Source: an uncultured Candidatus Berkelbacteria bacterium
GTDB taxonomy: Bacteria; Patescibacteriota; UBA1384; UBA12157
Assembly (NCBI GenBank): GCA_903877885.1
Contig: CAIRFN010000007.1
Coordinates: forward strand, 111-64,110
Length of the DNA stretch: 64,000 nucleotides
Reading direction: 5' to 3'
How positions within the stretch are numbered: the stretch's first letter is position 1; the number at the start of each line of letters is the position of its first letter. Below, piece after piece: positions 20,351 to 59,300 of the stretch. The notes beneath the pieces were generated by a model. That model was not told the origin of the DNA. It saw only the letters and a program-made list of their open reading frames with translations, and did not search any database. The translations under genes and the position numbers were made by a program.

Positions 20351-20424
20351 AAAGATTAGCTCCCTTCTAGCTAATATTATACCGCAAATAAATTAGAAGT
20401 AAAATCAAAAAGGGTAATACAACT

Positions 20425-20518
20425 TGTCATTCCAGACAGGTTGGCAACCTAGATCTGGAATCCAGGAAAATTATTCTGGATTCTTGATGTCGAGTTACCA
20501 CTCGGCTCGAGAATGACA
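20425..20518. repeat. Composite repeat A+B unit.
   Basis: TGTCATTCCAGACAGGTTGGCAACCTAGATCTGGAATCCAGG, a 9-nt AT linker, then TCTGGATTCTTGATGTCGAGTTACCACTCGGCTCGAGAATGACA. Lies upstream of the ATPase operon. Confidence 0.85.
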
Positions 20519-21778: not shown

Positions 21779-21789
21779 GATACATATTA

Positions 21790-21833
21790 TCTGGATTCTT
21801 GATGTCGGATTACCATCCGGCTCGAGAATGACA
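21790..21833. repeat. Repeat B copy.
   Basis: TCTGGATTCTTGATGTCGGATTACCATCCGGCTCGAGAATGACA, between rplL and tgt. Confidence 0.8.
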
Positions 21834-35420: not shown

Positions 35421-36022
35421 TAATATTCTTTTCTTCCCTCTAATGCTCTAGTTAGAGTGATTTCATCGGCATATTCCAGATCGCCACCAACCGGCAAACC
35501 TCTGGCAATCCGGGTCACCTTAACTTTGAAGCCTTTTTTATGTATTTGGCTATCCAAATACATACTGGTCGCTTCCCCTTCCAATGATGGGTCGGTAGCC
35601 AAAATCACCTCTTTAATTTCGGGGTTCTTCTCGATTTTAGCTAAAAACTCCGCAATACGCAAATTTTCCGGGCCAATACCATCGATCGGCGAAATTACCC
35701 CGCCTAATGTAAAGTATAAACCATCGTAATCGGTCTTTTCCAGTGCCACAATGTCAAGAGGTTCCTCCACTACCATAATTTTAGTTTTATCGCGTTGAGG
35801 ATTAGCGCAAATTTCGCACGGTTCGCTTTCAGTAATATTAAAACATTCGGAACAATATTTTAGGTTTTTCTTGAGATTTGAAACCGCCTCGCCCAGGTTT
35901 TTAATATCATAATCAGGTTTATTAAGTAAATAAAAAGTCAGCCGCCCGGCGGTTTTAGGCCCAATTCCAGGCAGTTTTCCAAATTCTTCAATTAAATTTT
36001 CGATCGATTTCGGTAACCGCAT
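35420..36022 (-). CDS. recR: Recombination protein RecR.
   Basis: LPGIGPKTAGR helix-hairpin-helix, C4 zinc finger CSEC...CEIC, Toprim domain. Start at MRLPKS. Confidence 0.9.
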   Translation of the reverse strand: MRLPKSIENLIEEFGKLPGIGPKTAGRLTFYLLNKPDYDIKNLGEAVSNLKKNLKYCSECFNITESEPCEICANPQRDKTKIMVVEEPLDIVALEKTDYDGLYFTLGGVISPIDGIGPENLRIAEFLAKIEKNPEIKEVILATDPSLEGEATSMYLDSQIHKKGFKVKVTRIARGLPVGGDLEYADEITLTRALEGRKEY

Positions 36023-36115
36023 ATATTGAATATATAAATTACTGGATGTTTTAGCAAGGGGCATTTTCCACCACCGCCACTTCGGAAGTGGAGGTGAGGT
36101 TTGAGCCCCGTCCTC

Positions 36116-36144
36116 TTGACTTTTGAGGGATTTTGGAGTATGAT
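36116..36144 (+). promoter_or_regulatory. Sigma-70-type promoter TTGACT-17-TATGAT for cassette 1.
   Basis: TTGACTTTTGAGGGATTTTGGAGTATGAT, followed by an AAGGAGG RBS. Confidence 0.55.
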
Positions 36145-36181
36145 ATTATATTGAATCTGGAAATCGAAAAGGAGGAAATAG

Positions 36182-36403
36182 ATGAAAGATTGTATGGACA
36201 TCACGTCCCCAAAGGGGACAAAAGTCCGGTTTTCCTACCCTAAAAATGGGTATGACAGTGACCAGGCCACGGCTAAAAAACATTTAACTGTCGGTCAGGT
36301 CTATACCGTGGACCACACCGTGGTTCACGACTGGCACACTGAAGTCTTTCTCCAGGAAAAGCCTGGAGTAAGCTTCAATCACGTGCATTTTGCGAAAGCA
36401 TAG
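36182..36403 (+). CDS. Hypothetical 73-aa protein in self-contained cassette 1.
   Basis: Own consensus promoter, AAGGAGG RBS and intrinsic terminator. GC-richer than the flanks. Confidence 0.5.
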   Translation: MKDCMDITSPKGTKVRFSYPKNGYDSDQATAKKHLTVGQVYTVDHTVVHDWHTEVFLQEKPGVSFNHVHFAKA

Positions 36404-36417
36404 GCACATTCTAACAG

Positions 36418-36484
36418 CCCGCGAAAAGACCCGTGAAGACATAAATTTATTTTTATTTCTTCATCCCGTCTTCGCGGGTTTTTT
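36418..36484 (+). terminator. Intrinsic terminator of cassette 1.
   Basis: CCCGCGAAAAGACCCGTGAAGAC...GTCTTCATCCCGTCTTCGCGGG then TTTTTT. Confidence 0.7.
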
Positions 36485-36508
36485 CGTATTTAAAAAATAC
36501 ACTTACTC

Positions 36509-36537
36509 TTGACAAATGACGGATTTTACCATATAAT
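36509..36537 (+). promoter_or_regulatory. Sigma-70-type promoter TTGACA-17-TATAAT for cassette 2.
   Basis: TTGACAAATGACGGATTTTACCATATAAT. Homologous to the cassette 1 promoter (CTCTTGAC...TGA.GGATTTT). Confidence 0.6.
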
Positions 36538-36566
36538 TGCTATATCAAAATCCAGAGGAGGACGTT

Positions 36567-36869
36567 ATGTCTTTACGACCATTTCACGAAACGATTGTGG
36601 ATGCCATTAAGCGATGCAAGCCCAGTCCATCTGCTGGCGAGATTCTTCATCTCCATCGATTGATTATGGACACCAAAATCCCGTCAAATCACGATGCAAT
36701 CCTGGAAGCGCTTCGCAAATATTGGGATTTCCCAGGATCCAGTAAATGGGGCCTCGAAATTCAGGACGTTGAAAAATCTCTGCGTGAGCAGAAGCAGAAA
36801 CATCTCGAAGAACAGGCTGAACACCAGCCGAAAATGACCGAAGAGGAAGACTACCGTCTGCGTCGATAA
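36567..36869 (+). CDS. Hypothetical ~100-aa protein in self-contained cassette 2.
   Basis: Consensus promoter TTGACA-17-TATAAT, AGGAGG RBS 6 nt before the ATG at 36567, and a terminator homologous to that of cassette 1. Confidence 0.5.
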   Translation: MSLRPFHETIVDAIKRCKPSPSAGEILHLHRLIMDTKIPSNHDAILEALRKYWDFPGSSKWGLEIQDVEKSLREQKQKHLEEQAEHQPKMTEEEDYRLRR

Positions 36870-36893
36870 AATATAACCAATAACCCGCGAAAG

Positions 36894-36930
36894 CGGCGGA
36901 AAAGCCCGCCCTCTAGTTCGCGGGTTTTTT
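36894..36930 (+). terminator. Intrinsic terminator of cassette 2, homologous to the cassette 1 terminator.
   Basis: CCCGCGAAAGCGGCGGAAAAGCCCGCCCTCTAGTTCGCGGG then TTTTTT. Shares its ends and 3' flank (TTTTTTCGTA.TTAAAAA) with the 36418 element. Confidence 0.7.
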
Positions 36931-37013
36931 CGTACTTAAAAATATAAAATTTATATCTTTTCATACCTTTCCATCCACCTCGTAGGTGGAACAATAGGTT
37001 TAGTAACCAGTTA

Positions 37014-37055
37014 CTGGATTCTTGATGTCGAGTGCCACTCGGCTCTAGAATGACA
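37014..37055. repeat. Repeat B copy.
   Basis: CTGGATTCTTGATGTCGAGTGCCACTCGGCTCTAGAATGACA, downstream of the topA stop. Confidence 0.8.
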
Positions 37056-37068
37056 ACTATAATGAGAA

Positions 37069-48334: not shown

Positions 48335-48958
48335 TTATCTTTTCCTTGATCTAAGATCCTTTCCTTGATTTAAGATACCTCGATCGACAAATTCAGAGAC
48401 TAAATCAATTTCTGATTCGATAATATCGGCCACCAAATATTTAACATATAGCTCGATTTGATAGAGATCTCTTAAATAACTAATCTCGCGAGCGCAATCA
48501 TAAGGAAAAACAAAAACTGATTTTTGAATTTGATAAAAACCAATTTCCTGGAGTTTGCGTCGGAAAGCATCCCTGGTTTTACCCTTAGTATTAGGAATAT
48601 CGAAAAGTACAATTCGCCATTTTCCATCCCAACTAGTTTTGGCAACTTTAGGCATTTCTCTAGCCAAATAATTGGGCACCAAATTTTTCCCTTTTTGAGT
48701 CAACTCGACTATCTCCCTGTTATCCTTATGAAAAACTTCGATAATTTTTTCTTTTTTTAACCGGTTTAAAATAGCTCGAAAACGACTTTTATCAAATTCT
48801 CGCCAAGAAAAATAATCGTCAATCGCCTTTTGATAATTCTTACTACCATCAAAAATTTGATACATAAAATTGTGCGCATCGATCAAATAAAGCATAATTT
48901 GTCTGGTAGTCAAAATAACTTTTTTTACCATTATTTTCTTTTGCATTTTTATCTTCAA
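48335..48958 (-). CDS. PaaX-family-like transcriptional regulator (winged HTH plus a Cas2-fold middle domain).
   Basis: WDGKWRIVLFDIPNTKGKTRDAFRRKLQEIGFYQIQKSVFVFP matches the PaaX W.G.W..V.YDIPE..R..R...L...GF..LQ.SVW..P block. Flanked by palindromic operator-like sites. Confidence 0.6.
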   Translation of the reverse strand: MKIKMQKKIMVKKVILTTRQIMLYLIDAHNFMYQIFDGSKNYQKAIDDYFSWREFDKSRFRAILNRLKKEKIIEVFHKDNREIVELTQKGKNLVPNYLAREMPKVAKTSWDGKWRIVLFDIPNTKGKTRDAFRRKLQEIGFYQIQKSVFVFPYDCAREISYLRDLYQIELYVKYLVADIIESEIDLVSEFVDRGILNQGKDLRSRKR

Positions 48959-57909: not shown

Positions 57910-57928
57910 ATGGTATTAAGTTTTTGCT

Positions 57929-58023
57929 TGTCATTCCAGACAGGTTGGCAACCTAGATCTGGAATCCAGGACAATTAATCTGGATTCTTGATGTCGGATT
58001 AACCATCCGGCTCGAGAATGACA
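57929..58023. repeat. Composite repeat A+B unit.
   Basis: Near-identical to the 20425 and 59141 copies, between pilD and the pilin-like gene. Confidence 0.85.
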
Positions 58024-58035
58024 ATTCGATTACGT

Positions 58036-59140: not shown

Positions 59141-59235
59141 TGTCATTCCAGACAGGTTGGCAACCTAGATCTGGAATCCAGGATAATTAATTCTGGATTC
59201 TTGATGTCGGATTACCATCCGGCTCGAGAATGACA
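59141..59235. repeat. Composite repeat A+B unit.
   Basis: TGTCATTCCAGACAGGTTGGCAACCTAGATCTGGAATCCAGG then TTCTGGATTCTTGATGTCGGATTACCATCCGGCTCGAGAATGACA, between pilA and pilC. Confidence 0.85.
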
Positions 59236-59300
59236 AATTTTTTGATTATTTGATTATTCCTTAGGCTTAATCGACCAACTAGCCTTTTATTAAGGATAAA

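What the first reader, a model, noticed from the sequence alone, without database searches (positions are those of the whole stretch)
36075..36935. Two tandem moron-like cassettes with homologous promoters and terminators but unrelated small ORFs
Each cassette consists of a near-consensus sigma-70 promoter (CTCTTGAC…TGA.GGATTTT…TATGAT/TATAAT with 17-bp spacers), an E. coli-like Shine-Dalgarno (AAGGAGG / AGGAGG), a small GC-rich ORF (73 aa; ~100 aa), and an intrinsic terminator. The two terminators share their ends and 3' flank (CCCGCGAA…TTCGCGGGTTTTTTCGTA.TTAAAAA) but have different stem cores. The regulatory shells are therefore homologous while the cargo ORFs are not, like an exchangeable-cargo module (phage moron, integron-like unit or toxin/immunity pair). 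The cassettes sit between recR and a repeat B copy upstream of topA, and their G+C is much higher than the surroundings.
Basis: seen in the sequence. Interest (0 to 1): 0.6.

Follow-up and report, generated by a model that had tools for sequence, protein, structure and literature searches.

The report
Duplicated promoter-terminator shell, two small genes
Two small genes, each with its own strong promoter and terminator, sit in a variable 1-kb insert between topA and recR of an uncultured Berkelbacteria (CPR) genome; one is a captured phage-family gene, the other belongs to a large unannotated CPR protein family, and their matching regulatory ends are most likely copies of this locus's own promoter and terminator, not a known mobile cassette system.

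Summary
CTCTTGACnnnTGAnGGATTTT and TTCGCGGGTTTTTTCGTAnTTAAAAA each occur exactly twice in 64 kb (0.1 and 0 expected). Both ORFs are real genes. The segment is 100% identical in assemblies from several samples, so it is not a chimera.

The host is a Candidatus Berkelbacteria-like CPR bacterium. One relative has topA and recR 45 bp apart; here about 1 kb is inserted on the opposite strand.

- ORF1 (73 aa) is a phage-family protein (Pfam PF27001 Phage_T4_Y07B, phrog_8472) with an SH3-like model and strongly atypical codon usage.
- ORF2 (100 aa) belongs to a large unannotated, all-helical Patescibacteria family (710 clusters). It was not found in IMG/VR.
- Three other Berkelbacteria carry an orthologous promoter-cargo-terminator frame at the same site, with different cargo: ORF2 alone, ORFX-ORF2, or an ORFX fusion.
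- P1 and T2 are therefore the ancestral frame. T1 and P2 are a second copy that separates the phage-derived gene from ORF2.

This is not a prophage moron, an integron or a toxin-antitoxin pair.

Two things remain unexplained. The terminator ends are invariant across genomes whose synonymous sites are saturated. IS200-type hairpins bracket the cassette pair.

Interest is moderate.

The parts
36022..36057 (-). recR start codon (36022-36020) and recR's own promoter: TTGCTA (36057-36052), 17 nt, TATATT (36034-36029). It sits back to back with the cassette promoter.
   Evidence: Promoter scan. The block TATAAATT...GTTTgGCAAGGGG is conserved at the same place in L036, L015 and L027. RecR of four relatives starts at M-x-L-P-[KRQ]-S-I-E-N-L.
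36066..36099 (+). Left hairpin element TTCCACCACCGCCACTTCGGAAGTGGAGGTGAGG. It is part of a 54-nt insertion (36062-36115) that splits the ancestral GCAAGGGG|TTGACT junction.
   Evidence: Inverted repeat I9. The pattern TTCCAYC..TYGKARG occurs only twice in the window, against 0.06 expected. It is homologous to the hairpins that flank the IS200-like gene in L036. The insertion is seen relative to L036 and L015.
36113..36144 (+). Promoter P1 (CTC-TTGACT, 17 nt, TATGAT). This is the ancestral promoter of the islet.
   Evidence: It is orthologous to L036 TTGACTTTTGGGGGAAATTTTGCTATAAT and to the L015 and L027 promoters.
36170..36403 (+). Shine-Dalgarno AGGAGG (36170-36175) and ORF1 (36182-36403, 73 aa): phage-family small protein with an SH3-like beta-barrel model.
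   Evidence: Precomputed Pfam PF27001 Phage_T4_Y07B. phrog_8472 at 3e-10. 17 GenBank phage records (15 distinct genomes) and 9 IMG/VR contigs. AF2 pLDDT 83.6. Weak FeoA/DtxR-SH3/Tudor fold matches. GC3 0.55 and CAI 0.53; only 0.3% of 100-codon host-gene windows score as low.
36418..36496 (+). Terminator T1: CCCGCGAA (36418-36425), variable centre, TTCGCGGG (36471-36478), T6 (36479-36484), conserved tail CGTATTTAAAAA.
   Evidence: Model R1 scores it 53 bits, E 1e-10. Its centre ACCCGTGAAGACAT resembles the L027 terminator centre ACCCGTGAAAAACAT.
36506..36537 (+). Promoter P2 (CTC-TTGACA, 17 nt, TATAAT). Diverged second copy of the islet promoter.
   Evidence: 12/12 consensus. 23 of 32 positions are identical to P1, read.
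36556..36869 (+). Shine-Dalgarno AGGAGG (36556-36561) and ORF2 (36567-36869, 100 aa): member of a large unannotated Patescibacteria family (motif RPFHETIVDAI...IPxNHDxI), all-helical.
   Evidence: 265 homologs. 710 clusters at 50% identity with E<=1e-3. AF2 pLDDT 90.5. No Pfam, PDB-sequence, PDB-fold or BFVD match. No relative found in IMG/VR.
36884..36942 (+). Terminator T2: CCCGCGAAAGCGGCGG...CCCGCC...TTCGCGGG, T6, CGTACTTAAAAA. This is the ancestral terminator of the islet.
   Evidence: R1 scores it 67.6 bits. Nearly the same element follows the cargo in L015, L027, L036, L051 and L013.
36969..36992 (+). Right hairpin element TTCCATCCACCTCGTAGGTGGAAC, in the same orientation as the left one. 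It lies at the same position after T as the first IS200-end hairpin in L036.
   Evidence: (I7).
37014..37056 (+). Right half of a 'repeat B' copy (CTGGATTCTTGATGTCGAGTGCCACTCGGCTCTAGAATGACAA), immediately before the topA stop codon (37069).

Best explanation
Location and layout (shown). The region is a lineage-variable islet inserted on the opposite strand between topA and recR of a Berkelbacteria-like (CPR/Patescibacteria) chromosome. It holds two independent monocistronic expression units.

How it works (inferred from sequence). Each unit has a near-consensus sigma-70-type promoter, a short leader with a strong Shine-Dalgarno, a small cytosolic protein and an intrinsic terminator. Transcription runs away from recR, which has its own promoter back to back with P1. 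It runs towards the 3' end of topA, so T2 should shield topA from convergent antisense transcription.

Origin (shown by comparison). P1 and T2 are the islet's ancestral frame. The same promoter and terminator at the same site in other Berkelbacteria enclose ORF2 alone, an ORFX-ORF2 bicistron, or an ORFX fusion.

Origin (inferred). In this lineage a horizontally acquired phage-family gene (ORF1) took the position behind P1. A second copy of the terminator (T1) and promoter (P2) now separates it from the resident gene ORF2. The shells are therefore paralogous copies of the locus's own control elements. They could have arisen by tandem duplication of the unit followed by cargo replacement. Alternatively, recombination within the promoter with a DNA molecule carrying P-ORF1-T would duplicate P around the insert.

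Protein functions are unknown. ORF1 is a small SH3-like phage protein. ORF2 is a helical protein with invariant His/Glu/His residues. One homolog among the 120 scanned carries a C-terminal Fis-type HTH, which weakly hints at a nucleic-acid-linked role.
For: - Shell copies exceed chance.
- Both ORFs have many homologs, so they are real genes.
- Empty site: in Ca. Berkelbacteria MAG ELA735 (RecR 86% identical), the topA stop and recR start are 45 bp apart.
- Same-site variants: L027 has recR | P-ORF2-T | paaX-like | topA. L015 has recR | P-ORFX-ORF2-T | paaX-like. L036 has recR | P-ORFX fusion-T | IS200-like | topA.
- Promoter orthology, including the upstream recR-promoter block.
- Terminator orthology.
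- The T1 centre matches the L027 terminator centre, so T1 is a true family member.
- ORF1 is phage-type and compositionally foreign. ORF2 is cellular and CPR-wide.
- The region is identical in independent assemblies.
Against: - No expression data. Promoters and terminators are consensus and fold predictions only.
- The order of events (duplication versus import of a ready-made P-ORF1-T unit) cannot be resolved.
- ORF2 itself has atypical codon usage (CAI in the lowest 2.4% of host windows), so the whole islet may be foreign in origin.
- The terminator family also occurs at unrelated loci: in L013 with ORF2, and in L051 with an unrelated membrane ORF that reads through it. A purely local duplication does not explain that.
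- Islet presence is patchy relative to RecR similarity.
- Terminator ends are invariant although synonymous sites are saturated. This hints at a role beyond termination.
Confidence: 0.6

Rival explanations
1. The shell is a dispersed, recombination-active module. The conserved 'terminator' (invariant ends, variable centre), possibly together with the promoter, would act as a site for cassette exchange in Berkelbacteria. Exchange could go by homologous recombination after natural transformation, or through a dedicated recombinase. Cargo would then be swapped between P and T much as in an integron.
For: - Cargo differs between orthologous P and T in four genomes.
- The 17-nt and 18-nt ends of T are 100% identical in the window, L027, L036 and L051, although ORF2 third-codon positions are only 37-49% identical.
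- The centre of T varies by indels and shows no compensatory pairs.
- T occurs at unrelated loci with ORF2 (L013) and with an unrelated membrane ORF that reads through it (L051).
- Islet distribution is patchy.
Against: - No integrase or other recombinase among the called genes within about 6 kb on either side.
- The ends do not fit the attC core (GTTRRRY/RYYYAAC); this was read from the sequence.
- Only two T copies occur in 64 kb.
- Only three related T loci turned up in the scan of 241 million metagenome records.
- Every cassette has its own promoter.
- Terminators with a similar CCCGC...GCGGGTTTTTT.GTAT layout exist elsewhere in these genomes (L027:12053), so part of the similarity may be clade style.
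Confidence: 0.15
2. The cassettes are a remnant of, or an import from, a CPR phage. That phage's small genes would each be wrapped in this promoter/terminator pair (true morons), and the units were left in the chromosome after prophage decay or illegitimate recombination.
For: - ORF1 belongs to a phage family (PF27001, phrog_8472) found in 17 GenBank phage records (15 distinct genomes) and 9 IMG/VR contigs.
- Both ORFs deviate from host codon usage and GC3.
- Each unit has a promoter-ORF-terminator layout, it is absent from a close relative, and its GC is atypical. These match the moron description in PMC3594210.
Against: - No other phage gene lies within about 6 kb on either side.
- Exact-pattern scans of IMG/VR for both shell words found nothing.
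- ORF1 homologs in phage-like contigs sit in tightly packed co-directional arrays without this shell.
- No ORF2-family relative was found in IMG/VR, and the family is widespread in CPR chromosomes.
- P1 and T2 are orthologous to the locus frame of relatives that lack ORF1.
Confidence: 0.15
3. The segment between the two same-strand hairpins (36066-36992) is the cargo of a non-autonomous IS200/IS605-type element. A Y1 transposase encoded elsewhere would mobilise it in trans.
For: - The hairpin element TTCCAYC..TYGKARG occurs exactly twice in the window, on the same strand, bracketing both cassettes (0.06 expected).
- Homologous hairpins flank an IS200-like Y1 transposase gene (PF01797, 1.2e-7) at the same locus in L036.
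Against: - No Y1 transposase in the 64-kb window.
- P1 and T2 are at orthologous positions in relatives that lack the left hairpin. The left hairpin therefore looks like a later solo insertion between the two promoters.
- The right hairpin may be a footprint of an IS like the one in L036.
- No second copy of the bracketed segment was seen anywhere.
Confidence: 0.05
4. The two ORFs form a toxin-antitoxin or toxin-immunity pair.
For: Two adjacent small genes of unknown function. In L015 the ORF2 homolog overlaps an upstream small ORF by 8 nt.
Against: - In the window the genes are separated by a terminator and a promoter.
- ORF2 homologs are mostly solitary.
- There are no Pfam, NCBIfam or PADLOC matches.
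- ORF1 homologs lie in phage early-type gene arrays.
Confidence: 0.03

Closest known systems
Phage morons (HK97/HK022 type; Cumby, Davidson and Maxwell 2012, PMC3594210)
   Same: Autonomous promoter-ORF-terminator units. They appear as additions relative to related genomes, with G+C and codon usage unlike the neighbours. One cargo is a phage-family gene.
   Different: The units are not inside a phage or prophage. The flanks are housekeeping genes (recR, topA). The outer promoter and terminator are orthologous to the host locus frame in relatives. The shell is duplicated locally and was not found in phage collections.
Integron gene cassettes (ORF + attC)
   Same: A tandem array of small unrelated ORFs, each followed by an imperfect palindrome with conserved ends and a variable centre. 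Cargo varies between relatives.
   Different: No IntI or attI in the examined flanks. The palindrome ends do not fit the RYYYAAC/GTTRRRY cores. Every ORF has its own promoter. The palindrome is followed by a T-run, as in an intrinsic terminator.
IS200/IS605 elements and REP/RAYT hairpins
   Same: Same-strand hairpins homologous to those flanking an IS200-like Y1 transposase gene in a relative bracket the cassette pair.
   Different: No transposase in the window. The hairpins look like solo insertions or footprints. The promoter/terminator shell itself is unrelated to these hairpins.
Small genes of T4-like and large phages in family PF27001 (Phage_T4_Y07B) / phrog_8472
   Same: ORF1 is a sequence member: 41-51% identity to the IMG/VR relatives and 37-47% to the GenBank phage relatives, similar length, and the conserved KGTKV...YTVDHT...TEVYLQE motifs.
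   Different: In phage-like contigs the homologs lie in tightly packed, often overlapping co-directional gene arrays without their own promoter and terminator. Here the gene is chromosomal and individually insulated.

Membership tests
Phage moron | Own promoter | tested here: met
   10/12 and 12/12 sigma-70 consensus matches with 17-nt spacers. Sequence evidence only; no transcript data.
Phage moron | Own factor-independent terminator | tested here: met
   GC-rich hairpins followed by T6. Fold z-scores are -7.9 and -4.0.
Phage moron | Composition differs from the surrounding genes | tested here: met
   GC3 0.55 and 0.47 against 0.35 +/- 0.06. CAI falls in the lowest 0.3% and 2.4% of 100-codon host-gene windows.
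Phage moron | Present as an addition relative to related genomes | tested here: met
   MAG ELA735 has a 45-bp topA-recR spacer. L027 has ORF2 but no ORF1.
Phage moron | Located within a phage or prophage genome, between phage genes | tested here: not met
   Neighbours are cysS, recR, topA, dprA, sua5, rplK and nusG. The shell was not found in IMG/VR.
Integron gene cassette | attC site with RYYYAAC / GTTRRRY cores | tested here: not met
   The palindrome ends are AACCCGCGAA / TTCGCGGGTTTTTT. There is no GTTRRRY core.
Integron gene cassette | Adjacent intI integrase and attI | tested here: not met
   No integrase among the called genes within about 6 kb on either side. The rest of the genome was not examined.
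Integron gene cassette | Promoterless cassettes expressed from a common Pc | tested here: not met
   Each ORF has its own near-consensus promoter.
Pfam PF27001 Phage_T4_Y07B (ORF1) | Significant match to the family profile | tested here: met
   Precomputed PF27001 hit for the exact protein. phrog_8472 at E 3.1e-10. The local Pfam copy lacks this model.
Type II toxin-antitoxin pair | Co-transcribed adjacent genes with homology to known toxin or antitoxin families | tested here: not met
   A terminator and a promoter lie between the genes. No Pfam, NCBIfam or PADLOC match.
IS200/IS605-type element | Y1 (HUH) transposase gene | tested here: not met
   tblastn of the L036 Y1 protein against the window gives no significant hit.
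IS200/IS605-type element | Subterminal hairpins at both ends on the same strand | tested here: met
   Two same-strand hairpin copies at 36066 and 36969, homologous to the L036 IS-end hairpins.
IS200/IS605-type element | Defined cleavage/target tetra- or pentanucleotide, and copies at other sites | not tested
   No second copy of the bracketed segment was available for comparison.
Intrinsic (Rho-independent) terminator | Termination of transcription in vivo or in vitro | not testable with these tools
   Only sequence and fold predictions are available.

The most novel reading that the evidence does not exclude
The conserved terminator-like element T has ends that are invariant across genomes with saturated synonymous sites, a centre that varies by indels, and copies behind at least four unrelated cargos at three kinds of locus. 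Possibly together with the IS200-type hairpins that bracket the pair, T could be the recombination or recognition site of a previously undescribed cassette-exchange system in CPR bacteria. Such a system would install foreign small genes, including phage genes, into a ready-made, insulated expression frame.
Probability: 0.1. Interest if true: 0.75.

Novelty: new variant of a known kind. Interest (0 to 1): 0.38.

Why it matters
- CPR/Patescibacteria genomes are small and syntenic, and little is known about how they gain and express new genes.
- This locus gives a concrete, comparatively resolved example. It is a hot spot inside a conserved DNA-maintenance gene row (dprA, topA, recR, cysS).
- A fixed promoter/terminator frame there is re-used, and here duplicated, around changing small cargo that includes a captured phage gene.
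- The work also delimits a large unannotated Patescibacteria protein family (ORF2; 710 clusters) with a confident helical model.
- It identifies a terminator-like element whose ends are conserved far beyond neutral expectation. Both can be tested directly.
- If the element proves to be more than a terminator, it would point to a new route of gene capture in these organisms. If not, the case is an ordinary accessory islet.

Tried and rejected
- E. coli-like origin (suggested by the CTG/CGT codons and consensus signals): no blastn match in 5,426 E. coli genomes.
- Third cassette in L004: the longer ORF2-topA gap is a scaffold run of N inside topA.
- Shell in phages: exact scans of IMG/VR for the promoter word and the terminator word found nothing. 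Model R1 found no T next to ORF1 homologs in phage contigs.
- ORF2 in phages: no tblastn hit in GenBank phages, no relative found in IMG/VR, no BFVD fold match.
- Known RNA family: only a sub-threshold osmY hit (20.8 bits against a gathering score of 46.9), taken as chance.
- DNA-uptake-sequence idea for CCCGCGAA/TTCGCGGG: TTCGCGGG occurs only twice in 64 kb.
- Further T copies in the window: none with the covariance model (next best 15 bits, E 0.1).
- The generic terminator pattern scan of metagenomes returned 42 loci. 39 of them are unrelated terminators from organisms of other G+C content.
- Function by homology for ORF2 and ORFX: Pfam, NCBIfam, PADLOC, PDB sequence and Foldseek-PDB were all negative.
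- A small ORF across T on the minus strand (FRRFRGL peptide) was rejected. It is simply the translation of the conserved DNA, and no ORF is conserved there.
- Literature searches for Berkelbacteria phages and CPR small-gene islets found nothing bearing on this locus.
Full report
**1. Observation**

| Part | Unit 1 | Unit 2 |
|---|---|---|
| Promoter | P1: TTGACT, 17 nt, TATGAT (36116-36144) | P2: TTGACA, 17 nt, TATAAT (36509-36537; 12/12 consensus) |
| Shine-Dalgarno | AGGAGG, 6 nt before the ATG | AGGAGG, 5 nt before the ATG |
| ORF | 73 aa (36182-36403) | 100 aa (36567-36869) |
| Hairpin + T6 terminator | 36418-36484 | 36884-36930 |

- The promoter word CTCTTGACnnnTGAnGGATTTT occurs only at these two places in 64 kb, even with 3 mismatches allowed (0.10 expected).
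- The 26-nt terminator 3' half TTCGCGGGTTTTTTCGTAnTTAAAAA also occurs only twice (0 expected).
- The 5' arms match as well.
- The coding parts do not align.
- Both terminators fold much better than shuffles, with z-scores of -7.9 and -4.0.

G+C is 47% against a mean of 39.5% for 45 long ORFs of the window. GC3 is 0.55 and 0.47 against 0.35. Only 0.3% and 2.4% of 100-codon host-gene windows have a CAI as low.

**2. Not an artefact**

Both exact proteins occur together, in the same recR-ORF1-ORF2-topA order, on at least 19 contigs from several ENA samples. The 2.2-kb region is 100% identical in seven of eight fetched loci. The eighth differs only through a scaffold gap.

**3. Host and site**

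The closest genome in GTDB is a Candidatus Berkelbacteria MAG (RecR 86% identical, TopA 76%).

In that MAG the topA stop and the recR start are 45 bp apart. In the window they are about 1 kb apart, and everything in between lies on, or is read from, the opposite strand.

The neighbours are housekeeping genes: cysS, recR, topA, dprA, sua5, rplK and nusG. No phage gene or recombinase gene is among the called genes within about 6 kb on either side.

recR most likely starts at 36022, where the RecR proteins of four relatives start. It has its own promoter, TTGCTA-17-TATATT, on the minus strand. That promoter block is conserved at the same place in three relatives, back to back with the cassette promoter.

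**4. The two cargos**

*ORF1* carries the precomputed Pfam hit PF27001 (Phage_T4_Y07B) and matches phrog_8472 at 3e-10.
- It has 37-47% identical relatives in 17 GenBank phage records (15 distinct genomes; phages of Bacillus, cyanobacteria, Pseudomonas and Erwinia), and 39-51% identical relatives in 9 IMG/VR contigs.
- Its nearest metagenomic relatives lie in phage-like arrays of overlapping co-directional small genes, one directly after a radical-SAM gene. None has a promoter/terminator shell of its own.
- The AF2 model (pLDDT 83.6) is a small beta-barrel with one helix. It gives only weak SH3-like matches (FeoA, DtxR C-terminal domain, Tudor).

*ORF2* has no Pfam, PHROG, PADLOC or NCBIfam match. 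It nevertheless belongs to a large family.
- A profile search found 265 proteins.
- A search of the 50%-identity representative library found 710 clusters at E<=1e-3.
- Where a source names them, they come from Patescibacteria, Paceibacterota, Parcubacteria or Harrisonbacteria.
- Nearly invariant residues are P5, F6, H7, E8, T9, T36, P39 and H42.
- The model is confident (pLDDT 90.5) and all-helical. It has no significant PDB or BFVD fold match and no PDB sequence match.
- One homolog among the 120 scanned carries a C-terminal Fis-type HTH.
- No relative was found in IMG/VR or in GenBank phages.
- In other CPR lineages the gene is also a solitary unit behind a TTGAC-type -35 box, ended by its own hairpin/T-run terminator of unrelated sequence.

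**5. The shell in relatives**

A metagenome scan for CCCGCGAA-N18-48-TTCGCGGGTTTTTT gave 42 loci. Thirty-nine are unrelated generic terminators and three are true relatives. Two more came from contigs that carry ORF2 homologs.

| Locus | Arrangement |
|---|---|
| L009 (MAG ELA735) | topA, 45 bp, recR (no islet) |
| L027 | recR, promoter, ORF2 homolog, T, PaaX/Cas2-like gene, topA |
| L015 | recR, promoter, ORFX overlapping an ORF2 homolog, T, PaaX-like gene |
| L036 | recR, promoter, 146-aa protein with an ORFX-like N-terminus (E 3e-9), T, IS200-like Y1 transposase gene flanked by hairpins, topA |
| L013 | different locus: ORF2 homolog followed by T |
| L051 | different locus: unrelated 134-aa membrane ORF that reads through T |

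*Promoter.* The promoters of L036, L015 and L027 align with P1, including the upstream block GTTTGGCAAGGGG that holds the -35 box of the divergent recR promoter. In the window a 54-nt hairpin-containing insertion (36062-36115) splits that junction.

*Terminator.* The 17-mer ACCCGCGAAAGCGGCGG is identical in the window (T2), L015, L027, L036 and L051. The 18-mer TTCGCGGGTTTTTTCGTA is identical in T1, T2, L027, L036 and L051, with one mismatch in L015. T1 lacks the CGGCGG segment, but its centre ACCCGTGAAGACAT resembles the L027 centre ACCCGTGAAAAACAT. T1 is therefore a genuine family member and not a chance look-alike.

*Conclusion.* P1 and T2 are the ancestral frame of the islet. ORF2 is its usual resident. 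T1 plus P2 is a second copy of the frame that now separates ORF1 from ORF2.

**6. How it most likely works**

Shown:
- the anatomy of the region;
- that it is an insert;
- that the frame is orthologous in relatives;
- the phage affinity of ORF1;
- the cellular, CPR-wide distribution of ORF2.

Inferred:
- Two independent, probably strongly expressed monocistronic transcripts are made.
- T2 insulates the convergent topA.
- recR is driven by its own promoter, because the islet separates it from topA.
- The second shell copy arose in one of two ways. Either the unit was duplicated in tandem and its cargo then replaced, or the promoter recombined with a molecule carrying P-ORF1-T, which would leave P duplicated around the insert.

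The data cannot tell these routes apart. P1 and P2 share 23 of 32 positions. Part of that may be clade-typical promoter style:
- A 24/29 match to P1 lies upstream of a 167-aa gene (function not looked up) in L013.
- Host promoters in the window share G(G)TTT in the mid-spacer.
- CCTCTTGAC recurs before ORF2 homologs in other lineages.

**7. What is not explained**

(a) Between these genomes, ORF2 third-codon positions are 37-49% identical and recR DNA is 71-76% identical. Yet the outer stem, T-run and CGTA tail of T do not vary. The centre changes only by indels, and no pair shows a compensatory change. Selection on a terminator stem may be enough, but sequence-specific recognition or spread of T as an element cannot be excluded. 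T at the unrelated L051 locus points the same way.

(b) The element TTCCAYC..TYGKARG occurs exactly twice in the window, on the same strand, at 36066 and 36969 (0.06 expected). The two copies bracket both cassettes. They are homologous to the hairpins around the IS200-like gene at the same locus in L036. The window encodes no Y1 transposase.

(c) The islet is absent from a genome as close to the window as L027 is, yet it is present in the more distant L036.

**8. Comparison with known systems**

- *Phage morons.* The units meet four of the five moron criteria (PMC3594210): own promoter, own terminator, deviant composition, and presence as an addition. They fail the fifth and defining one, location inside a phage genome. 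They work like morons but are not members of that class.
- *Integron cassettes.* They fail every tested criterion: no attC cores, no integrase in the examined flanks, and each ORF has its own promoter.
- *Toxin-antitoxin pairs.* There is no support for this reading.
- *IS200/IS605 elements.* The hairpins are present but the transposase is not.

I file this as a new variant of a known kind: an accessory small-gene islet with a re-used, duplicated expression frame in a CPR chromosome. Interest is moderate (0.38). The most novel reading not excluded is a cassette-exchange role for T or for the hairpins. I give it about 10%.

Noticed in passing
window about 20424-20518, 21786-21833 (partial), 57928-58024, 59141-59237, and 36960-37056 (diverged): 'Repeat B' is an element of about 97 nt with terminal inverted repeats TTGTCATTC...GAATGACAA. 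It has five copies, all on the + strand, in gaps between minus-strand genes. It folds into a closing stem plus three hairpins (-40.7 kcal/mol, z -4.5) and has no Rfam match. The copy next to cassette 2 keeps the three-hairpin layout but with different stem sequences. It could be a MITE or a structured RNA.
   Followed up: partly
window 36020-36064: The recR ORF as listed starts at 36064, but relatives start at the Met encoded at 36022. A conserved promoter (TTGCTA-17-TATATT) ends 6 nt before that ATG, which suggests a leaderless or near-leaderless recR mRNA. The same layout is seen in L027 (TTGCCA-17-TATCAT, 6 nt, ATG).
   Followed up: partly
L036:279-938 (- strand), with hairpins at about 975-1000 and 225-255: An IS200-like Y1 transposase gene (PF01797, E 1.2e-7) sits between T and topA at the orthologous locus of a relative. 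It is flanked by two same-orientation hairpins CCATCCCGACCTTGGAAGTCGGGATGG.
   Followed up: partly
L051:318-722 (- strand): A 134-aa predicted membrane protein at an unrelated locus, next to a gene I read by eye as radical-SAM-like (not tested), reads through a T-family element. It stops only in the conserved tail CGTATCTAA, so T supplies its last roughly 20 codons.
   Followed up: partly
L027:6341-6910, L015:1179-1490; window 48410-48787 (- strand): A PaaX/Cas2-like gene (PF20803, E about 1e-19) occupies the islet between T and topA in two relatives. The window has a 39% identical paralog about 12 kb away instead.
   Followed up: no
ORF2 family (alignment A5; proteins P0008-P0228): This is a large Patescibacteria family with no Pfam model: 710 clusters at 50% identity, nearly invariant RPFHET and IPxxH motifs, and a confident 4-5-helix model. 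Many members are 140-300 aa with unannotated extensions. It is a candidate for a new domain family.
   Followed up: partly
L015:497-521 and L036:1553-1577 (- strand): The cassette leaders in L015 and L036 share a conserved hairpin, GTAACTCCGCA..AACGGAGTAAA, upstream of ORFX. It is absent from the window's leaders.
   Followed up: no
L027:12053-12079: A simpler terminator, TAACCCGCCCAACGGCGGGTTTTTTAGTATCAAAAAA, follows an unrelated 260-aa gene. It has the same overall layout as T (R1 23 bits, E 0.003). Part of the T 'shell' may therefore be a clade-typical terminator style.
   Followed up: partly
window 36073-36184: A sub-threshold Rfam hit to osmY RNA (20.8 bits against a gathering score of 46.9; E 0.049) overlaps the left hairpin and P1. 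I regard it as chance.
   Followed up: no
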